Source of the DNA: Candidatus Nomurabacteria bacterium
GTDB lineage: Bacteria; Patescibacteriota; Minisyncoccia; Phycocordibacterales; UBA9973
Length of the DNA: 54,700 nt
Assembly (NCBI GenBank): GCA_026395895.1
Contig: JAPLXV010000021.1
Coordinates: 1-54,700, forward strand
Direction: 5' to 3'
The position numbers and the translations under genes are program-made. Below, one piece after another: positions 20,682 through 26,803 of the stretch. The notes below the pieces were generated by a model that saw only the letters and a list, made by a program, of their open reading frames with translations, did no database searches and was not told the origin of the DNA. Numbering within the stretch: position 1 is the first letter of the stretch; every line of letters begins with the position of its first letter.

Positions 20682-20939
20682 TTATAACATATTTATACCT
20701 TCTTTTCTCAATATTTCCTTCTTCTTTTGTCCTCCCTTATTATACCCGCCGGGTTTTCCATCGGAACGAATAACCCTATGACATGGGATTTTTGGGTTGT
20801 GGTTTTTATTTAGAATATTTCCAACAGCTCTACTTGCTTTCATATTCCCTGCCTTTCTTGCTACTTCCTTATACGTCAAAACCTTCCCTTTTGGTATTTT
20901 CTTCACAACCTCATAAACTTTTTCTGCAAAAGATTTCAT
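20682..20939 (-). CDS. MGMT-family methylated-DNA-protein-cysteine methyltransferase DNA-binding/active-site domain protein
   Basis: 85 aa with the PCHRV active-site motif (KIPCHRVIRSDG). Confidence 0.85.
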   Translation of the reverse strand: MKSFAEKVYEVVKKIPKGKVLTYKEVARKAGNMKASRAVGNILNKNHNPKIPCHRVIRSDGKPGGYNKGGQKKKEILRKEGINML

Positions 20940-21407: not shown

Positions 21408-21665
21408 TTATGAAAGATGCTTGGAAACAAGTTTCGTCATTTCAAACATATTTACTACGCTTTTACCACCAAACACTTTCTTTAATGCAGCATCAGCATT
21501 GATATTACGCTTATTCTTTGGATCTTGAAGATTGTTCTTCTTGATATATACCCACAATGCTTTTACCACCTCAGATCTAGGCATAGGACCCTTGCCTACT
21601 ACTTCTGCCAACTCAGCGCTTATAATCATTGGCTTCATAAATGCGGAAACTTTTTTATCTGCCAT
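21408..21665 (-). CDS. SWIB/MDM2 domain protein
   Basis: MIISAELAEVVGKGPMPRSEVVKALWVYIKKNNLQDPKNKRNINADAALKKVFG matches the SWIB domain pattern. The start was chosen at MADKK (21665). An extended -10 (TGcTATAAT) lies at about 21735-21743 on the minus strand. Confidence 0.85.
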   Translation of the reverse strand: MADKKVSAFMKPMIISAELAEVVGKGPMPRSEVVKALWVYIKKNNLQDPKNKRNINADAALKKVFGGKSVVNMFEMTKLVSKHLS

Positions 21666-21800
21666 ATATTTTTCTTGTTTTGTTAATTTCAGCCATAAGC
21701 TGATCCGCCTCTGGCGGAAATTTATAATGTATCTATTATAGCACATATTGCCGAATCTTTCTCCCTTTTCTCGTATTTTTAGATCCAAACTTTAACCTTA

Positions 21801-22094
21801 TTATTGTTTGATTCTAAATGGTCGCTTATTAACTTCTTTAAGAATTTTAAGCGTTGCTTGTACTGAAAGATTATCACTAGGTAATAAAACCAAGCGATCA
21901 CCAAGGAGATTAAGTAGTGGGCTTAAAAATTCATCAGACCAAGAAGGTGATAATGTTAATACGTCAGAAAAATCTATTTCAAGCTCTTCGTTCTTTGAAA
22001 ACTCACGTAGAGTGGGTTGAAATGCCTTTAGAGCCTCACTGCCTAATTCCCGAGATATTAATGTTTTGCCAAATTTTCCTAATTGTAATTTCAT
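21801..22094 (-). CDS. STAS-like (DUF4325-type) small protein
   Basis: 97 aa. GKTLISRELGSEALKAFQPTLREFSKNEELEIDFSDVLTLSPSWSDEFLSPLL follows the DUF4325/STAS_2 pattern (R-x2-G ... DF-x-V ... S-x-S-x-DEF). It starts 20 nt after the GHKL gene. Confidence 0.7.
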   Translation of the reverse strand: MKLQLGKFGKTLISRELGSEALKAFQPTLREFSKNEELEIDFSDVLTLSPSWSDEFLSPLLNLLGDRLVLLPSDNLSVQATLKILKEVNKRPFRIKQ

Positions 22095-22114: not shown

Positions 22115-22834
22115 TCAAAATTCTATTTTTGCTAAACATCCTCGCACAATACGCTGACCACGCGTAACACGAAATGCTTTATCAGAACCTTTCATACGTA
22201 CTTCAGCATCACCAGTAGTATAAAATAAATCAATTGGATTTTCAGTAATTACCTCTCGAACGAGTTTAAGCCCATTTCCTCGTTTTTCTGGTGCCCTGCC
22301 AGAAATAAATTCAGTAAAAGCAACTGTTACTGCAGCAACATGGTTTGAAAGTTCTGGCCGAACCTGACGTAATGTTTCTAAAATACCTAATCCTCTATCG
22401 GCAAGTATAATAATTCTTTTTTCTAAATTATAACCAAAAAAGATTCCTATTGTATCAGGCCATTTTCCTATATTATGAGCAAATGAATTATCGCCAATTT
22501 CTCCAGTAACGAGAACAATCAAAGAATATAATTTTTCAAATCCTGGCTGTTGCATTAGCGCATACTCCATTTTAGTCAATCTTGCATTAAAAATTGAGCT
22601 TGTTGAACAATAAAATGTGCTAGGAAATTCAACACCATCTTCTATCCATTCGGAAGCAAATTTCATTATATCACTGGTAAAAATTTCTAAATCTTTTTCA
22701 CGATAATATCGATGAGTTCCACCATCTTTTTTAATAGCAATTAATTTACCACTTTCATCCCAACGACGTAATGTGTTCAAAGAAACCCCAAGATATTCAG
22801 CTGCTTGGCTAATTGTTAATAATTTTTCATCCAT
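22115..22834 (-). CDS. MerR/excisionase-type HTH fused to a GHKL (anti-sigma-factor/RsbW-like) ATPase domain
   Basis: The N-terminus, LTISQAAEYLGVSLNTLRRWDESGKL, is a MerR-type HTH. The C-terminus has GHKL boxes: N-box EIGDNSFAHN, G1 DRGLGI and G2 GNGLKL. Confidence 0.75.
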   Translation of the reverse strand: MDEKLLTISQAAEYLGVSLNTLRRWDESGKLIAIKKDGGTHRYYREKDLEIFTSDIMKFASEWIEDGVEFPSTFYCSTSSIFNARLTKMEYALMQQPGFEKLYSLIVLVTGEIGDNSFAHNIGKWPDTIGIFFGYNLEKRIIILADRGLGILETLRQVRPELSNHVAAVTVAFTEFISGRAPEKRGNGLKLVREVITENPIDLFYTTGDAEVRMKGSDKAFRVTRGQRIVRGCLAKIEF

Positions 22835-23018: not shown

Positions 23019-25046
23019 TTAAAACCAAATCTCATTTTTATCTAAAACCCTAACAACTACCCCCTGCATTCTAACTTCTTCGTTTGTTTTAAACTTTAAT
23101 GGTTTATGTTCCGAGTTACTAGAGTTGGGTTTTAAAACTAAGTAACCATTTTCTCTACGATATTCCTTTATTGTAGCATCATCGCCAATAAGTGCTACTA
23201 CCTTTTTCCCTTCTTCTGGACGGTAATTTTTCACACATAAAACTAGGTCTCCATCATTAATTCCAGCTTTATTCATAGAATCCCCTTTCGTCCTCAAAAC
23301 AAAATATTTTGATCCTTTTGACATATAATCTTTTCTAACTGAAATCATTTCTTGAACTGTCGGATCAGCATACATTAACTCTCCACAACCAACTGATTCA
23401 AACAACGGAACGCTAACCATTTCAAATTTATCAGCATATGGCGACCTAACCAGACTAATTATTTTTTCTTCTTTCTCTTTATTGTTTATTTTATTTTTAA
23501 AGTATTCTGCAAGTTTTTTATCTACTGCATAAATAAAAGTCCCTTTTATACCTCTCGTCAAAAGAGTTTTATATATATTTATAATATATCTTTCTAATTC
23601 CAAGGGATCAGTAATACCCCTCCAGCCATTCGTATCCATGTAATTATCTGAGTTTATAATTAATTTATTATTTTCTTCATCATATGAGAGTTCTGGTCCA
23701 ATAATTACACCAACATAATTTAAGTCATATCCCTGCACCGTGTGAATACAACCAACCTCATTTATTGCATTTTTCGAATTTACCCAATCTTGATTTGTAC
23801 TATTCCAAAACAATTTCAAACCATCAATTTCAATATCATGGATATTCGGATTATTTTTGCTTTTCCATTCCCACGCATATCCAGCAACTATTCTACAAAG
23901 CTTTAATTCCAAATCTTTTTTCTTTATATCGTCTACCATTTTATGTATATCTTCATAAAACCTTAAATCATAGTTCGGAAAACTGTATTTACTTAAATTT
24001 TTTAAATCAAACAAATCATCAATAAAATTAATATATTCTTCGCCAGCACTTATTCTTTGTTGGCTAGTTAAATCATAATGAACAGCATTCATTTGAGTAA
24101 ACTTTCTAGGTCTTACATCGGCTGGTTTAATTGTCTGATTTTTATCATAAAAAAATATTTGATGCTTAGATGATTTTAAAATCCAATCCAACTCAGTTCC
24201 AGAATTATCAAGATCTAATTTTTTATTTGTTATATCAAAAGACTGATAATTAGCTATATTTTTTCTTTGTTTTAATCTATGTGCTTCATCAACGATCAAA
24301 ATATCATAATTTTTATTTACAACTTCATTTGGACCAATCACCATACTTGTTTTTAGCCCTTTTACTTGAGAAAAAACTTTTCTTATTGTTTTCCTAAGAG
24401 ATGTCATGGGTACAACCAAAGCTATCTCAAGATTTTTTGTTTCTTCTTTTTCTTTTAAAAATTTGGCCAAATACACCGCTAATATCGTTTTTCCTGTTCC
24501 TGGTTTACCATTTACTACAAAAGTTTTTTCTTTATTCTCTTTTATATCTTTAAATATACTTCTGGCAACAATTATTTGATCTTCTGTAAGGGATTTATAC
24601 GGTGAATATTTAAATAAATCACTATTCTTTATTTGTACCAAATCTTTTTTTACGAGAGACATTTCCTGTAACTTTTGCCAAATAGTTTCAAACTTTGCTT
24701 GATATTTTTGTCTATCATAATAATTATGATTCAATAAACCTTGGTTCCCATTTTGTAATACAAAAGAACCTTCAGCAGACATATATTGGATAAGGGAAGA
24801 TTCAATGTCCAATGTAGCTGACTTGTTGTATTCTTCATCGCTAATTATATGTATCCTTTTTAACTTTTTTCTTTCTGGGTTTTCGTAATGCTGATTACTT
24901 CTACCATAAATATTAACTGTTTCTCCAATATATATTTCTCTGCCATCTTCAATAAGATAAACAACTGGCCAATTAATACCAAAATGATATGACCTCATCT
25001 GATCAAATTCCTTCTTATCAAACAATAAGGTCTTTATCTCAGCCAT
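23019..25046 (-). CDS. GIY-YIG nuclease / DUF2075 (SF1-like P-loop helicase) / LexA-UmuD-type S24 peptidase fusion protein
   Basis: The N-terminus, VVYLIEDGREIYIGETVNIYGRSNQH, is GIY-YIG-like. The core has Walker A GKPGTGKT, Walker B ILIVDEAHRL and HTVQGYDLNYVGVII. The C-terminus has PLFESVGCGE (cleavage-site-like C-G as in UmuD), GDSM (Ser nucleophile) and ATIKEY (Lys). Confidence 0.8.
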   Translation of the reverse strand: MAEIKTLLFDKKEFDQMRSYHFGINWPVVYLIEDGREIYIGETVNIYGRSNQHYENPERKKLKRIHIISDEEYNKSATLDIESSLIQYMSAEGSFVLQNGNQGLLNHNYYDRQKYQAKFETIWQKLQEMSLVKKDLVQIKNSDLFKYSPYKSLTEDQIIVARSIFKDIKENKEKTFVVNGKPGTGKTILAVYLAKFLKEKEETKNLEIALVVPMTSLRKTIRKVFSQVKGLKTSMVIGPNEVVNKNYDILIVDEAHRLKQRKNIANYQSFDITNKKLDLDNSGTELDWILKSSKHQIFFYDKNQTIKPADVRPRKFTQMNAVHYDLTSQQRISAGEEYINFIDDLFDLKNLSKYSFPNYDLRFYEDIHKMVDDIKKKDLELKLCRIVAGYAWEWKSKNNPNIHDIEIDGLKLFWNSTNQDWVNSKNAINEVGCIHTVQGYDLNYVGVIIGPELSYDEENNKLIINSDNYMDTNGWRGITDPLELERYIINIYKTLLTRGIKGTFIYAVDKKLAEYFKNKINNKEKEEKIISLVRSPYADKFEMVSVPLFESVGCGELMYADPTVQEMISVRKDYMSKGSKYFVLRTKGDSMNKAGINDGDLVLCVKNYRPEEGKKVVALIGDDATIKEYRRENGYLVLKPNSSNSEHKPLKFKTNEEVRMQGVVVRVLDKNEIWF

Positions 25047-25048
25047 AA

Positions 25049-25396
25049 TTATAATTTATTATATTTAGTATGTTTCCCTTTTGCTTTTTTTACTGGATAT
25101 TTTTTAGCATTCTTTTTTATTTTTTTATCTAAAGCATCTAAAATATCAATTTTCAAATCATGACTCATTAATAATATCCAATAAAAAACATCAGCTAGTT
25201 CTTCGCCAATATGCTCTTTGTGAGTTTTTATATATTCTTCAACTTCTTCTTTTGATTTCCATTGAAAATGTTCTAAAACCTCAGCAGCTTCTAGAGATAA
25301 AGAAATTGCTAAATCTTTTGCATTATGAAACTGTTTCCAGTTTCGTGCATCTCGAAACGCTAGTATTTTTTTAGTCAATTTTTTTGTATCTATCAT
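25049..25396 (-). CDS. MazG-like all-alpha nucleoside triphosphate pyrophosphohydrolase
   Basis: ILAFRDARNWKQFHNAKDLAISLSLEAAEVLEHFQW...GEELADVFYWILLMS shows the E-x2-E...E-x2-D pattern of small MazG/YpjD-type enzymes. Its stop lies 2 nt before the start of the next gene. Confidence 0.8.
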   Translation of the reverse strand: MIDTKKLTKKILAFRDARNWKQFHNAKDLAISLSLEAAEVLEHFQWKSKEEVEEYIKTHKEHIGEELADVFYWILLMSHDLKIDILDALDKKIKKNAKKYPVKKAKGKHTKYNKL

Positions 25397-25445
25397 AAAC
25401 TTATTTCTCTAACTTTTTGTACAAAGTCCCAGTTATTATTAAAAT

Positions 25446-26207
25446 TTACAATCCACTTAATTGACTATTTAGCTCGCGTTCGAGTGTCGCAGAAAAATCT
25501 CTTATAATCCCTTGTTGATCAATCGGTAAAAATGCACTAAGCTCATTTTTAAAATTTATTTGTTTTGCCTCCGCAATAATAATGTCTTTAATCGGACCAA
25601 GTTTTTTCTTTTGTTCAATAGAAAGCATTCCTTTGCGCATTATAATATAAAGATCATAAAAATCACGTGGTTTTTTGCGTTCAAGTAATGCACCAAAAAT
25701 TTTTTCATCAATTAATTCATTTTGTGGCAAGTGAGTAATTGTATATGTAGGCGCAAAATTATTTGAAATACTATCAACTTCACCTTTTATAATCACATCA
25801 CTTCGTGTCGAAATGTTTATCTCTACACCAATTGGTTGATAATCAAACATTTGAAATGTAGCAATTCCCAAATAACCGCCACTTGTCGCACCAAATCTAT
25901 CTCCAAGCTTAACTTTTATTCCCATTTTTTCTATTTCGGAAAGTGTTTTTAAAAACAACTCCTCAATAAATGATTTAACTTCATGCGGAACAACACCAAA
26001 AAGAGAAAAATCTAAATCTTCAGAAAAACGCGGGCTGCCATAAACAATACGAAGTGCAGTGCCTCCTTTAAAAAGTAATTTTTCAGAATTTGGTAATTTA
26101 TATAACTCTCCCAAAAAAATATGTTGAAAATATTCTCGAACTACATTCGGAAATATTCCCATTTGATATTGCCTGCTCAATTTTTCGAGTGTTTCTATAG
26201 ATATCAT
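25446..26207 (-). CDS. AbiEii/AbiGii-family nucleotidyltransferase toxin (DUF1814)
   Basis: LLFKGGTALRIVYGSPRFSEDLDFS is the signature region of AbiEii NTases. It overlaps the upstream AbiEi-like gene by 4 nt. Confidence 0.85.
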   Translation of the reverse strand: MISIETLEKLSRQYQMGIFPNVVREYFQHIFLGELYKLPNSEKLLFKGGTALRIVYGSPRFSEDLDFSLFGVVPHEVKSFIEELFLKTLSEIEKMGIKVKLGDRFGATSGGYLGIATFQMFDYQPIGVEINISTRSDVIIKGEVDSISNNFAPTYTITHLPQNELIDEKIFGALLERKKPRDFYDLYIIMRKGMLSIEQKKKLGPIKDIIIAEAKQINFKNELSAFLPIDQQGIIRDFSATLERELNSQLSGL

Positions 26208-26803
26208 TGTAGCGTTGTTGTTATTATGCTTAAAAGTTTTTTATTACCAAATAGTGAAGCATATTTTTTCGCCCTAATGGGATTAATTTTTTCTTTATTG
26301 AAACGAGAAATCGGTTTTTGCCCATTCATCAATCTTAAATAATTTGTATCTACAAAAGCTTTTTCAGCATCAGCAATATTAAAACTGAGATTCTTTTGTT
26401 TTTGAATTTCATACCCAGTATAAGCAATTTTTTTAATTTTACGATAAGAAAAAATTTTTCCTAACGCTTCAAATCTACGTGTGGCTTTAGTAGTTACTGA
26501 AGTAATTTCATAAACCGTTTCTGGAATAACTCCATGGTATGAAAGCGCAAATTCAAGAGAAATATAAGATGGAGTGTAAAGTTTGCTAGCAACATAAACA
26601 TCGGGAGGCAAAATATCTGGAAAAGAATAAAATCCTTTCTTAAGTTGCACTACAAATCCTTGTTTTTTATACCTATGAAGTAGCGCGGATGCAGCAACAG
26701 AAGAAACTCCAAAAAGGGAGCGAATATCACTTGCGTTGAATATATATAACTTTTTACCCTTTATTTTTAAAGCAAAAAGTGTCTGATTCACCAATTTGAC
26801 CAT
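26204..26803 (-). CDS. AbiEi-family antitoxin-like transcriptional regulator
   Basis: N-terminal winged-helix-like region (IFNASDIRSLFGVSSVAASALLHRYKKQGFVVQLKKGFY), about 200 aa, immediately upstream of and overlapping the AbiEii gene. Confidence 0.75.
   Translation of the reverse strand: MVKLVNQTLFALKIKGKKLYIFNASDIRSLFGVSSVAASALLHRYKKQGFVVQLKKGFYSFPDILPPDVYVASKLYTPSYISLEFALSYHGVIPETVYEITSVTTKATRRFEALGKIFSYRKIKKIAYTGYEIQKQKNLSFNIADAEKAFVDTNYLRLMNGQKPISRFNKEKINPIRAKKYASLFGNKKLLSIITTTLQ

What the first reader, a model, noticed from the sequence alone, without database searches (positions are those of the whole stretch)
23019..25396. MazG-like pyrophosphohydrolase coupled to a GIY-YIG / DUF2075-helicase protein carrying an apparently intact LexA/UmuD-type self-cleaving domain
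Seen in sequence: two minus-strand genes are separated by only 2 nt (TAA-TT-ATG), which suggests translational coupling. The 675-aa product combines three parts. The first is a GIY-YIG-like nuclease head (VYLIEDGREIYIGETVNIYGRSNQH). The second is a P-loop helicase core (GKPGTGKT, ILIVDEAHRL). The third is a C-terminal ~130 aa module with all three hallmarks of S24 autoproteases in the right order and spacing. Those hallmarks are a cleavage-site-like PLFESVGC-GE (UmuD cleaves at Cys-Gly, LexA at Ala-Gly), the Ser nucleophile in GDSM, and the Lys in ATIKEY. Established knowledge: S24 domains self-cleave when activated by RecA-ssDNA filaments. Inference: this could be a nuclease-helicase effector licensed or released by a DNA-damage or phage-ssDNA signal, with a MazG enzyme acting on a nucleotide pool or signal. 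The pair sits next to AbiE in an accessory block. I know of no named defence system with this composition.
Basis: partly seen in the sequence, partly recalled or inferred. Interest (0 to 1): 0.85.

Follow-up and report, generated by a model that had tools for sequence, protein, structure and literature searches.

The report
Nuclease-helicase with detachable LexA-type cap
A widespread two-gene cassette (a small nucleotide pyrophosphatase plus a DNA-cutting helicase) carries here a portable, apparently functional LexA-type self-cleaving domain, which may let a DNA-damage signal switch nucleases directly.

Summary
The 675-aa protein has a divergent GIY-YIG head, a DUF2075/Schlafen-type helicase (Pfam 5e-66) and a LexA-type S24 domain (Pfam 5e-24). 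Its modelled S24 fold matches LexA (TM 0.85-0.88). Its Cys-Gly, Ser and Lys align with LexA A84-G85, S119 and K156.

The fusion is not a chimera: more than 110 full-length clusters share it.

MazG is a fixed partner. It lies next to the helicase gene in 79 of 80 genomes, usually 0-5 nt away, including Bacillus plasmids. No third gene is conserved. Neighbours are rich in toxin-antitoxin and restriction genes.

Only 42 of 80 loci carry S24, nearly all in Paceibacteria. The module occurs in several types that do not track the helicase tree. The same 'SPY-linker + S24' cap also sits on Sau3AI-type restriction enzymes that keep their methylase.

The MazG + DUF2075 pairing is not new. Millman et al. 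2022 tested it as candidate SG192 and saw no protection.

My reading is a Nhi-like defence-type cassette whose nuclease gained a portable self-cleaving switch, probably RecA-responsive. Whether cleavage activates or stands down the enzyme is unresolved. No defence phenotype is known. It is a new variant of known kinds.

The parts
25397..25445 (-). Short intergenic region upstream of MazG; presumed promoter of the pair
   Evidence: 49 nt between the AbiEii stop and the MazG ATG. In many related loci an extended -10-like element (TGTGGGATAAT / GTGGTAGAAT) lies 7-12 nt before the MazG ATG. No conserved LexA-box-like palindrome was found. The window itself has only a 10-bp palindrome, TTTGTACAAA.
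25049..25396 (-). MazG-like all-alpha NTP pyrophosphatase (115 aa), DCTPP1/RS21-C6 type
   Evidence: Pfam PF12643 4.2e-19. PDB sequence hits: 4qgp 1.5e-19, DCTPP1/RS21-C6 4.8e-13. E36/E39/E42, E66/D69, W20, F23, H24 and W46 are >=95% conserved in 81 sequences. The gene lies next to the helicase gene in 79/80 loci. It is 57% and 53% identical to the Bacillus partners.
25044..25051 (-). Gene junction TAA-TT-ATG (2-nt spacer)
   Evidence: Read directly. The gap is -1 to +5 nt in 62/70 related loci.
23019..25046 (-). 675-aa GIY-YIG / DUF2075 helicase / S24 fusion protein
   Evidence: ORF. Domains. More than 110 full-length homologous clusters at 57-88% identity. AF2 model with mean pLDDT 85.8.
24732..24971 (-). 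N-terminal GIY-YIG-like nuclease head (residues ~26-105)
   Evidence: Pfam GIY-YIG 5e-4, below cut-off. Y30, Y39, G41, R49, H53, E82 and N99 are invariant. Profile hits to T4 EndoII, I-TevI and UvrC-N at E 0.09-0.3. The model has beta-beta-alpha-beta-alpha order. PADLOC PDC-S14 hits this region.
23520..24593 (-). DUF2075 / Schlafen-group-3-type SF1 helicase core (residues ~152-509), with Walker A GKPGTGKT and DEAH box
   Evidence: Pfam PF09848 5.4e-66. G180, G183, T184, K186, D253, E254 and H256 are invariant. Foldseek matches RecD2, Upf1, SLFN11/14, Dna2 and Dda. PADLOC Nhi 3e-17 and AbiO 1e-15, helicase part only.
23409..23477 (-). Disordered linker (residues 524-546) containing the 'SPY' motif (S536-P537-Y538)
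   Evidence: pLDDT <50 for residues 524-539. The SPY motif is shared by all fused S24 types and by the REase-S24 fusions, but is absent from free LexA proteins. Natural short forms end at about residue 520-527.
23043..23408 (-). LexA-type Peptidase S24 domain (residues 547-668)
   Evidence: Pfam 4.6e-24 with full profile. NCBIfam lexA 5.9e-22. PDB LexA 9e-10. Foldseek TM 0.85-0.88 and rmsd 2.3 A to LexA CTD 1jhe, 8gms and 8s7g. Nearest free relatives are LexA-sized proteins at 40-46% identity.
23382..23387 (-). Predicted scissile bond Cys554-Gly555
   Evidence: Aligns with LexA Ala84-Gly85. It is >=90% conserved and kept in all S24 types and in the REase fusions.
23277..23279 (-). Predicted nucleophile Ser590 (in GDSM)
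   Evidence: Aligns with LexA Ser119. G588, D589, S590 and M591 are >=90% conserved.
23166..23168 (-). Predicted general base Lys627 (in TIKEY)
   Evidence: Aligns with LexA Lys156. T625 and K627 are >=90% conserved.

Best explanation
This is a self-contained, horizontally mobile two-gene cassette of defence-island type.

Gene 1 encodes a DCTPP1-like all-alpha NTP pyrophosphatase (MazG-like). Gene 2, translationally coupled to it, encodes a Nhi-like nuclease-helicase: a GIY-YIG nuclease head on a DUF2075/Schlafen-type SF1 helicase.

In a Paceibacteria-centred subset, which includes this window, the nuclease-helicase has gained a portable C-terminal cap. The cap is a disordered 'SPY' linker followed by a LexA-derived S24 domain with an intact Cys-Gly scissile site and Ser/Lys dyad.

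The following steps are inferred, not shown. The cap dimerises as LexA's C-terminal domain does. It cuts itself off at C554/G555 when stimulated, most probably by RecA-ssDNA filaments. That leaves an N-terminal product almost identical to the natural cap-less enzyme. The cap would then act as a post-translational DNA-damage/ssDNA switch on a DNA-cutting enzyme.

The direction is unresolved. I lean slightly to a stand-down, restriction-alleviation-like role: losing the dimerising cap weakens or ends nuclease action while the host repairs or recombines its own DNA (about 0.35). The licensing/activation reading is close behind (about 0.30).

MazG's role is also inferred. It probably hydrolyses a (modified) pyrimidine dNTP pool in concert with the nuclease-helicase.
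For: Shown:
- Domain identities.
- The catalytic residues of all four modules are conserved.
- The fusion recurs in more than 110 clusters, and at least 595 genomes encode a relative.
- MazG is adjacent in 79/80 loci, with a -1 to +5 nt gap in 62/70. It is also adjacent on a Bacillus plasmid at 34% helicase identity, and after an order flip in viral contigs.
- There is no conserved third gene: 269 neighbours fall into 216 clusters.
- Neighbours are enriched in NYN, Fic/SoFic, Mrr/NucS/YhcG nucleases, McrB-N, AbiEii, PemK, Panacea, methylases and PDC candidates.
- S24 is present in 42/80 loci, and natural short forms end at about residue 520-527, just before the disordered linker.
- S24 identity is uncoupled from core identity (r = 0.13). 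There are at least three types, and the core tree needs at least 56 type changes.
- The same SPY-linker + S24 module caps Sau3AI-type REases that keep a cognate C5 methylase. Those modules are 62-77% identical to helicase type T3.
- All types keep Cys-Gly, GDSM and TIK despite 35-52% divergence from one another.
- The nearest free relatives are annotated LexA repressors.

From the literature: Nhi is a validated nuclease + DUF2075 defence enzyme that dimerises.
Against: - No experiment shows cleavage, RecA dependence, nuclease or helicase activity, or phage defence for this family.
- The only tested MazG + DUF2075 candidate (SG192, with a different nuclease head) gave no protection against 26 phages. 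SG193 could not be cloned.
- The GIY-YIG assignment rests on sub-threshold scores.
- No recA or lexA lies in the window, and no LexA-box-like operator is conserved upstream, so the link to the SOS response is by homology only.
- The cleaved product would resemble natural, presumably active short forms. That argues against simple inactivation.
- The ancestral short enzymes are evidently tolerated, and the REase has its methylase. That argues against any need for licensing.
- The NJ tree behind the gain/loss counts is rough.
Confidence: 0.55

Rival explanations
1. Licensing. The S24 cap holds the nuclease-helicase inactive. RecA-ssDNA formed during phage replication or DNA damage triggers self-cleavage and releases an active enzyme, giving an abortive-infection-like or inducible defence.
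For: The cleavage product (1-554) is almost the natural short form, which ends at about residue 520-527 and is presumably active. UmuD is a precedent for activation by S24 cleavage (established knowledge). Several defence systems respond to DNA damage; Hachiman and AbpAB appear in the literature search.
Against: The short forms and Nhi-type enzymes are tolerated without any inhibitor, so licensing is not obviously needed. The cap is joined by a disordered linker. It is swapped freely between cores and between two unrelated nuclease families. That is hard to square with a specific auto-inhibitory docking surface. The REase-S24 fusions keep a cognate methylase and so need no licensing. Ordinary DNA damage would unleash the nuclease on the host's own DNA.
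Confidence: 0.3
2. Housekeeping DNA-repair module. MazG sanitises the dNTP pool and the GIY-YIG helicase repairs DNA in a UvrC-like way, with S24 tying its level to the SOS response. On this view it has nothing to do with phages.
For: MazG/DCTPP1 enzymes are house-cleaning pyrophosphatases (for homology; function from established knowledge). GIY-YIG is the UvrC incision domain. S24 is the SOS module. SG192 gave no phage protection. Only 5 of 2.9 million viral contigs carry the pair.
Against: Distribution is patchy and cross-phylum (CPR, Clostridium, Bacillus plasmids), and flanks are never conserved. Neighbours are enriched in toxin-antitoxin, restriction and defence genes. The local GC dips to 0.28-0.31 against 0.33-0.40 in the flanks. 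The closest characterised architecture, Nhi, is a defence enzyme. The same cap sits on a restriction enzyme.
Confidence: 0.15
3. The S24 domain does not cleave. It serves only as a dimerisation domain or as a RecA-filament-targeting domain.
For: LexA's C-terminal domain is a constitutive dimer and binds in the RecA filament groove. The model's best fold matches include LexA-RecA complexes 8gms, 8s7g and 8trg. Nhi and SLFN11 act as dimers.
Against: Cys-Gly, Ser590 and Lys627 stay fixed while the rest of the module has diverged to 35-52% identity between types and has moved to another protein family. That indicates selection on catalysis, not only on the fold.
Confidence: 0.1
4. Assembly chimera, or a mis-called fusion of two adjacent genes.
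For: None found. CPR MAG assemblies can be fragmentary.
Against: The same uninterrupted ORF occurs in more than 110 distinct protein clusters from NCBI, JGI, ENA and Logan assemblies, on contigs up to 633 kb, and in 42 species-representative genomes.
Confidence: 0.01

Closest known systems
Nhi (nuclease-helicase immunity, S. epidermidis SERP2475; Bari et al.) and 'Nhi-like' (Millman et al. 2022, SG141)
   Same: A single polypeptide with an N-terminal nuclease and a DUF2075 SF1-type helicase. It has a defence-island context, and Nhi dimerises. The PADLOC Nhi model hits the helicase core at 3e-17.
   Different: Nhi's head is PD-(D/E)xK, while this one is GIY-YIG-like. Nhi is a single-gene system with no MazG partner and no S24 domain. 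Only the helicase part aligns.
Millman et al. 2022 candidate family 'Pyrophosphatase' (SG192 B. firmus LK28; SG193 B. thuringiensis Lr3/2)
   Same: The same two-gene logic: a ~100-aa MazG-like pyrophosphatase next to a DUF2075 protein. The window's MazG is 53% identical to SG193's.
   Different: Their DUF2075 partner has a different, PD-(D/E)xK-like head and shares only the P-loop core (28% over 149 aa). It has no S24. SG192 was tested and marked 'x' (no protection), and SG193 failed at cloning. The family was never named or discussed in the text.
LexA / UmuD (MEROPS S24 self-cleaving proteins)
   Same: Fold (TM 0.85-0.88), the Ser/Lys dyad, the scissile X-Gly in the same position, and the same overall layout: functional N-terminal part, flexible linker, cleavage site, dimerising catalytic domain.
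   Different: The N-terminal part is a 520-aa enzyme (nuclease-helicase), not a DNA-binding repressor domain or a 24-residue arm. There is an extra conserved 'SPY' linker motif. Neither cleavage nor RecA dependence has been tested.
Human Schlafen group 3 proteins (SLFN11, SLFN14)
   Same: A homologous helicase domain (Pfam SLFN-g3_helicase 5e-66; Foldseek hits 7zep, 7zel, 9uie, 9nyy) fused to an N-terminal nuclease. SLFN11 acts at damaged or stalled replication.
   Different: The nuclease domains are unrelated. Schlafens have no S24 and no MazG partner. The resemblance in DNA-damage coupling is by analogy only.
Restriction alleviation of type I R-M systems after DNA damage (ClpXP degradation of HsdR; established knowledge, not tested here)
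   Same: A nuclease of a defence system is switched off post-translationally when the host's DNA is damaged or being repaired. This is the stand-down reading of the S24 cap on both the helicase-nuclease and the Sau3AI-type REases.
   Different: The mechanism would be self-cleavage of an in-built LexA-type domain, not targeted proteolysis by ClpXP. There is no experimental support yet.

Membership tests
Peptidase S24 (LexA/UmuD) | S24 catalytic-domain fold | tested here: met
   Pfam PF00717 4.6e-24 over profile positions 1-116/116. The AF2 model superposes on LexA CTD 1jhe_A at TM 0.88 and rmsd 2.3 A, and on 8gms_A and 8s7g_A at TM 0.85-0.87.
Peptidase S24 (LexA/UmuD) | Ser nucleophile and Lys general base | tested here: met
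   S590 and K627 align with LexA S119 and K156. Both are >=90% conserved in 119 homologues and in all S24 types.
Peptidase S24 (LexA/UmuD) | Ala/Cys-Gly scissile bond N-terminal to the catalytic core | tested here: met
   C554-G555 aligns with LexA A84-G85. It is conserved. Related free LexA proteins mostly also have Cys-Gly.
Peptidase S24 (LexA/UmuD) | Self-cleavage, stimulated by RecA-ssDNA | not testable with these tools
   Requires biochemistry. No recA or lexA lies in the window.
DUF2075 / SLFN-g3 helicase (PF09848) | Pfam model above gathering score, with intact Walker A and B | tested here: met
   223.7 bits against a cut-off of 24. GKPGTGKT and DEAH are invariant. The fold is SF1B-like.
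GIY-YIG nuclease superfamily | Pfam/profile match above threshold | tested here: inconclusive
   PF01541 scores 20.7 bits against a cut-off of 22.6. Seven homologues carry a precomputed PF01541 hit. A family profile ranks T4 EndoII, I-TevI and UvrC-N on top, but only at E 0.09-0.3.
GIY-YIG nuclease superfamily | GIY...YIG motifs, catalytic Arg, Glu and Asn in order; beta-beta-alpha-beta-alpha core | tested here: met
   Y30, Y39-x-G41, R49, E82 and N99 are invariant. The model shows E28-33, E37-43, H46-54, E64-69 and H75-92.
MazG-like all-alpha NTP pyrophosphatase (PF12643; DCTPP1 type) | Pfam above gathering score; ExxE...ExxD metal ligands | tested here: met
   69 bits against a cut-off of 27. 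E36/E39 and E66/D69 are >=95% conserved. PDB hits: 4qgp 1.5e-19 and DCTPP1 4.8e-13. Substrate not tested.
Nhi defence system (Bari et al.) | PD-(D/E)xK nuclease head plus DUF2075 helicase in one protein; single-gene system | tested here: not met
   The head here is GIY-YIG-like, not PD-(D/E)xK. The PADLOC Nhi model aligns only at positions 171-434/470, the helicase part. A MazG partner is obligatory here. It works like Nhi but is not a member.
Millman 2022 'Pyrophosphatase' candidate (SG192/193) | Adjacent MazG-like pyrophosphatase and DUF2075 genes | tested here: met
   Adjacency holds in 79/80 loci. MazG is 53% identical to SG193's. The helicases share only the core.
Millman 2022 'Pyrophosphatase' candidate (SG192/193) | Anti-phage phenotype | not testable with these tools
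   SG192 is marked 'x' and SG193 'Cloning failed' in the authors' table. 'v' corresponds to 'Verified' for SG141.
AbiE toxin-antitoxin (neighbouring genes) | AbiE genes co-occur with the MazG-helicase pair | tested here: not met
   The window's AbiEii gave no tblastn hit in any of the 80 loci, and AbiEi gave one weak hit, in L015. Two of 137 immediate neighbours are AbiEii-family by Pfam. AbiE is a separate module.

The most novel reading that the evidence does not exclude
The 'SPY-linker + LexA-type S24' cassette is a portable, RecA-filament-sensing proteolytic switch. Paceibacteria (CPR) bolt it onto unrelated DNA-cutting defence enzymes: a Nhi-like nuclease-helicase and a Sau3AI-type restriction enzyme. 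That would make it the first case of LexA-type autoproteolysis controlling enzymes directly instead of repressors or UmuD. In effect it would be a post-translational branch of the SOS response that either alleviates restriction during repair or recombination, or licenses nucleases during infection.
Probability: 0.45. Interest if true: 0.8.

Novelty: new variant of a known kind. Interest (0 to 1): 0.65.

Why it matters
As far as I know and could find in the searched library, LexA-superfamily self-cleavage has been described for transcription factors and UmuD. In this family, an intact LexA-type module sits on the C-terminus of two unrelated nucleases and moves between them. That suggests a general way of wiring a DNA-damage/ssDNA signal directly to nuclease activity.

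It also gives a simple, testable handle on two open questions. The first is how sequence-independent Nhi-type nuclease-helicases avoid attacking host repair intermediates. The second is whether type II restriction can be alleviated post-translationally.

The work further defines MazG + nuclease-DUF2075 as one of the most tightly coupled two-gene cassettes in candidate-phylum bacteria and Bacillota. No function for it is known. The Schlafen-type helicase makes it of comparative interest for SLFN11-like DNA-damage responses.

Tried and rejected
- Assembly chimera: rejected because the fusion recurs widely.
- AbiE as part of the system: rejected, not conserved.
- A conserved third gene: none. All-vs-all clustering of 269 neighbours gave 216 clusters, the largest with 5 members.
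- UmuD-like origin of the Cys-Gly site: rejected. The nearest relatives are LexA-sized proteins annotated as LexA, and most also have Cys-Gly.
- A separate S24 gene next to the short forms: not found. The only hits, in L042 and L044, are distant and on the other strand.
- SOS box upstream of MazG: no conserved palindrome, only an extended -10-like element.
- recA or lexA in the window: none.
- Phage origin: only 5 of 2.9 million IMG/VR contigs and a few unverified faecal 'Bacteriophage sp.' scaffolds carry relatives.
- Membership of PADLOC Nhi or AbiO: only partial helicase-core matches.
- Free 'LexA' proteins nesting inside the family's S24 types (P0127, P0134): these turned out to be fragments of the fusion.
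- Rooting the gain/loss tree on the Bacillus protein: it mis-scored that protein's unrelated C-terminal tail as S24, so the inferred root state is not used.
- Literature searches for DUF2075+MazG, DUF2075+S24 and LexA-like+S24+helicase+anti-phage: no description of the fusion. DefensePredictor lists MazG only as a predicted, unvalidated defence domain.
- Position of the cleavage loop relative to Ser590 in the model: could not be examined, because coordinates and PAE are not returned.


Full report
**What is there.** Two minus-strand ORFs occupy 25049-25396 (115 aa) and 23019-25046 (675 aa). They are separated by TAA-TT-ATG.

The small protein is a MazG-like all-alpha NTP pyrophosphatase (Pfam PF12643, 4.2e-19). 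Its closest solved relatives are the pyrophosphatase 4qgp (1.5e-19) and mammalian dCTP pyrophosphatase DCTPP1/RS21-C6 (4.8e-13). Its ExxE...ExxD metal ligands and aromatic pocket residues are at least 95% conserved in 81 family members.

The large protein has three parts:
- A DUF2075/Schlafen-group-3 helicase core (PF09848, 5.4e-66) with invariant Walker A and DEAH motifs.
- A complete Peptidase_S24 domain (4.6e-24; NCBIfam lexA 5.9e-22).
- An N-terminal region that scores just below the Pfam GIY-YIG threshold (20.7 against 22.6 bits).

The GIY-YIG reading has further support. Y30, Y39-x-G41, R49, E82 and N99 are invariant. The model has beta-beta-alpha-beta-alpha order. A family profile ranks T4 EndoII, I-TevI and UvrC-N as its best PDB hits, though only at E 0.09-0.3. 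I treat the nuclease head as probable, not proven.

**The S24 domain.** phmmer against PDB sequences aligns residues 543-669 with LexA proteins (best hit 3k2z, 9e-10). In the alignment with E. coli LexA, C554-G555 falls on Ala84-Gly85, S590 (GDSM) on Ser119 and K627 (TIKEY) on Lys156.

An AlphaFold2 model built on 119 homologues has mean pLDDT 85.8. It shows a disordered linker at 524-539 and a confident S24 domain. That domain superposes on LexA catalytic domains at TM 0.85-0.88 and 2.3 A rmsd (1jhe, 8gms, 8s7g). The helicase resembles RecD2, Upf1, SLFN11/14, Dna2 and Dda.

In the 116 S24-bearing homologues, the Cys-Gly, GDSM and Lys are essentially fixed.

A phmmer search of 1.8 billion representatives with the S24 module alone shows where it came from. 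Outside the fusion family, the nearest relatives are 200-215-aa proteins at 40-46% identity. Those that carry names are annotated 'repressor LexA', from candidate-phylum MAGs. Most of them also have Cys-Gly. The module is therefore LexA-derived, and the Cys-Gly is not a UmuD signature.

**It is a real, recurrent protein.** The word-indexed search returned more than 110 distinct full-length clusters (57-88% identity), all with PF00717 + PF09848. They come from NCBI, JGI, ENA and Logan assemblies, on contigs up to 633 kb. At least 595 species-representative genomes encode a relative. An assembly chimera is excluded.

**The MazG partner is the strongest signal.** In 80 fetched loci, a MazG homologue lies directly upstream on the same strand in 78. 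It is divergent in one (L080). The last locus (L068) has no upstream sequence to assess.
- The stop-to-start gap is -1 to +5 nt in 62 of 70 measurable cases.
- The pairing persists at 34% helicase identity on Bacillus cereus-group megaplasmids, where RefSeq annotates 'nucleotide pyrophosphohydrolase' next to 'DUF2075 domain-containing protein'. There the MazG is still 57% identical.
- It also persists after an order flip in two viral contigs.
- No third gene is conserved: 269 flanking proteins fall into 216 clusters.
- AbiE, the window's neighbour, is not part of the module.
- Roughly a fifth of the 137 immediate neighbours belong to toxin-antitoxin, restriction or defence families (my estimate from the partly overlapping Pfam member counts). 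These include NYN, Fic/SoFic, Mrr/NucS/YhcG nucleases, McrB-N, AbiEii, PemK, Panacea, methylases and several PADLOC 'PDC' candidates.
- The window's block is also lower in GC than its flanks.

Together this describes a mobile, self-contained accessory cassette in defence-island-like contexts. No LexA-box-like operator is conserved upstream. An extended -10-like element sits 7-12 nt before the MazG ATG in many loci.

**S24 is an optional, exchangeable cap.** Only 42 of the 80 loci carry it. Those with informative names are Paceibacteria/Parcubacteria-type CPR lineages. The exceptions are three short contigs binned to Bacteroidota, which I suspect are misbinned; this was not tested.

The other 38 loci have ~520-545-aa forms that end just before the disordered linker. 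They include other CPR classes, Clostridium and Bacillus.

Within the S24-bearing proteins, S24 identity is almost uncorrelated with core identity (r = 0.13). The module falls into at least three sequence types. These are only 35-52% identical to each other, yet sit on cores that are equally related within and between types. On a rough NJ tree of the core, at least 17 presence/absence changes and at least 56 type changes are needed, against about 91 when types are shuffled.

**The same cap on a second nuclease family.** The closest S24 relatives with a different N-terminus are Sau3AI/MutH-type restriction endonucleases of 611-638 aa (P0129, P0280-P0283, P0128). The usual length in that family is ~461 aa. 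Where named, they again come from Paceibacteria-type MAGs. They lie next to a divergent C5 DNA methylase, with Vsr in one locus, so they are ordinary R-M systems.

Their linker + S24 is 62-77% identical to the helicase family's type T3, but only 35-54% to the other helicase types. All fused forms share an 'SPY' motif about 15 residues before the Cys-Gly, which free LexA proteins lack. A single 'SPY-linker + S24' cassette has therefore moved between two unrelated DNA-cutting enzymes.

**Prior knowledge.** Nhi (Bari et al.) is a validated single-gene defence enzyme. It has a PD-(D/E)xK head and a DUF2075 helicase, it dimerises, and it appears to attack phage replication intermediates. Millman et al. 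validated a 'Nhi-like' protein.

PADLOC's Nhi and AbiO models hit only the helicase core of the window's protein, and MazG hits nothing. The cassette works like Nhi but is not a member.

Millman et al.'s table of tested candidates contains a family called 'Pyrophosphatase'. SG192 (B. firmus; MazG-like 98 aa + DUF2075 643 aa) is marked 'x'. SG193 (B. thuringiensis) is marked 'Cloning failed'. 'v' corresponds to 'Verified' elsewhere in their tables.

The window's MazG is 53% identical to SG193's. The SG192 helicase shares only the P-loop core and has a different head. The MazG + DUF2075 pairing had therefore been noticed and tested once without success, but never discussed.

I found no paper that mentions DUF2075 with MazG. 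I also found none describing an S24-helicase or S24-restriction-enzyme fusion. MazG appears only as a predicted, unvalidated defence domain in DefensePredictor.

**Mechanism.**
- *Shown:* the composition, the conservation of catalytic residues, the coupling of the two genes, and the optional, mobile nature of the cap.
- *Inferred from LexA biology:* the cap dimerises, and it cuts at C554/G555 when bound to RecA-ssDNA. That would sever a ~14-kDa C-terminal domain from a ~63-kDa enzyme nearly identical to the natural short form.

The direction of the switch cannot be decided from sequence.
- *For licensing:* the product resembles a presumably active short form, and UmuD is activated by the same chemistry.
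- *For a stand-down switch:* the cap-less enzymes are evidently tolerated. The capped restriction enzymes already have a protecting methylase. The cap hangs on a disordered linker and tolerates swapping between cores and families. That fits a generic effect, such as LexA-like dimerisation-dependent DNA engagement or cleavage-exposed instability, better than a bespoke inhibitory interface. RecA filaments are, first of all, a sign that the host is repairing or recombining its own DNA.

I rate a functional self-cleaving switch at about 0.6-0.65. Within that, I put stand-down at about 0.35 and licensing at about 0.30 of the total.

MazG's role is unknown. Its DCTPP1-like pocket suggests hydrolysis of a (modified) pyrimidine dNTP. 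That could starve or unmask phage DNA, but this is inference only.

**Verdict.**
- The coupling and the intact S24 hold.
- AbiE is incidental.
- The pair was already an unvalidated candidate.
- 'Licensing' is one of two live options.

The new element is the portable LexA-type cap on nucleases. I class it as a new variant of known kinds, with above-average interest because it is simple to test.

Noticed in passing
L083:5001-6836, L086:2199-4115 (proteins P0282, P0283; also P0129, P0280, P0281, P0128): Sau3AI/MutH-type restriction endonucleases from Paceibacteria-type MAGs carry the same 'SPY-linker + S24' C-terminal cap (611-638 aa against the usual ~461 aa). They sit next to a divergent C5 DNA methylase, plus Vsr in L086. 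Smr (L083) or ClpS (L086) lies just downstream.
   Followed up: partly
proteins P0257 (500 aa), P0259 (444 aa), P0256 (761 aa): Other unusual S24 fusions turned up in the S24 search: a complete LexA (wHTH + S24) fused to an N6/N4 DNA methylase, and a trypsin-like peptidase + pentapeptide repeats + S24.
   Followed up: no
window 22115-22834 (-) and 21801-22094 (-); L026:4554-5594: Directly downstream of the fusion lies a 239-aa protein with a MerR/excisionase-type HTH. By eye, its C-terminal part looks like a histidine-kinase-type ATPase. It is followed by a 97-aa DUF4325/STAS-like protein. The same pair (56% and 55% identity) sits just upstream of MazG in L026. It may be another small mobile two-gene module.
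   Followed up: partly
window 25446-26803 (-): An AbiEii (253 aa) / AbiEi (199 aa) type IV toxin-antitoxin pair overlaps by 4 nt. It lies immediately upstream of MazG but is not conserved with it elsewhere.
   Followed up: yes
L004, L006, L008, L012, L014, L016, L021, L031, L033, L036, L043, L046 (7-12 nt upstream of the MazG ATG): A recurrent extended -10-like element (TGTGGGATAAT / GTGGTAGAAT) lies so close to the MazG start codon that the transcript would be leaderless or nearly so. The window's own upstream region has a perfect 10-bp palindrome, TTTGTACAAA, about 20-30 nt before the MazG ATG (near 25417-25426).
   Followed up: partly
L025:5813-7786, L078:6203-8179: In two loci a second, unrelated DUF2075 protein lies immediately downstream of the S24-bearing helicase. 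It is a full-length match to PADLOC candidate PDC-S41 (1e-286).
   Followed up: no
L090:3188-5031, L091:3520-5363 (IMG/VR contigs): In two viral contigs the gene order is inverted (helicase, then MazG), yet the pair stays together. Only 5 of 2.9 million viral contigs carry a relative.
   Followed up: partly
L060, L068, L072 (Gracilibacteria-labelled or similar loci): In L060 and L072 the helicase ORF appeared interrupted under table 11. This may reflect the alternative genetic code (UGA = Gly) used by Gracilibacteria. L068 gave a complete 537-aa ORF. Not checked further.
   Followed up: no
window 20682-20939 (-), 21408-21788 (-): Flanking genes include an SWIB/MDM2-domain protein (Pfam 2e-31), which is unusual outside Chlamydiae and eukaryotes but is seen in CPR. 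There is also an 85-aa ORF that, by eye only (not scanned), resembles the DNA-binding domain of methylated-DNA-protein-cysteine methyltransferase.
   Followed up: no
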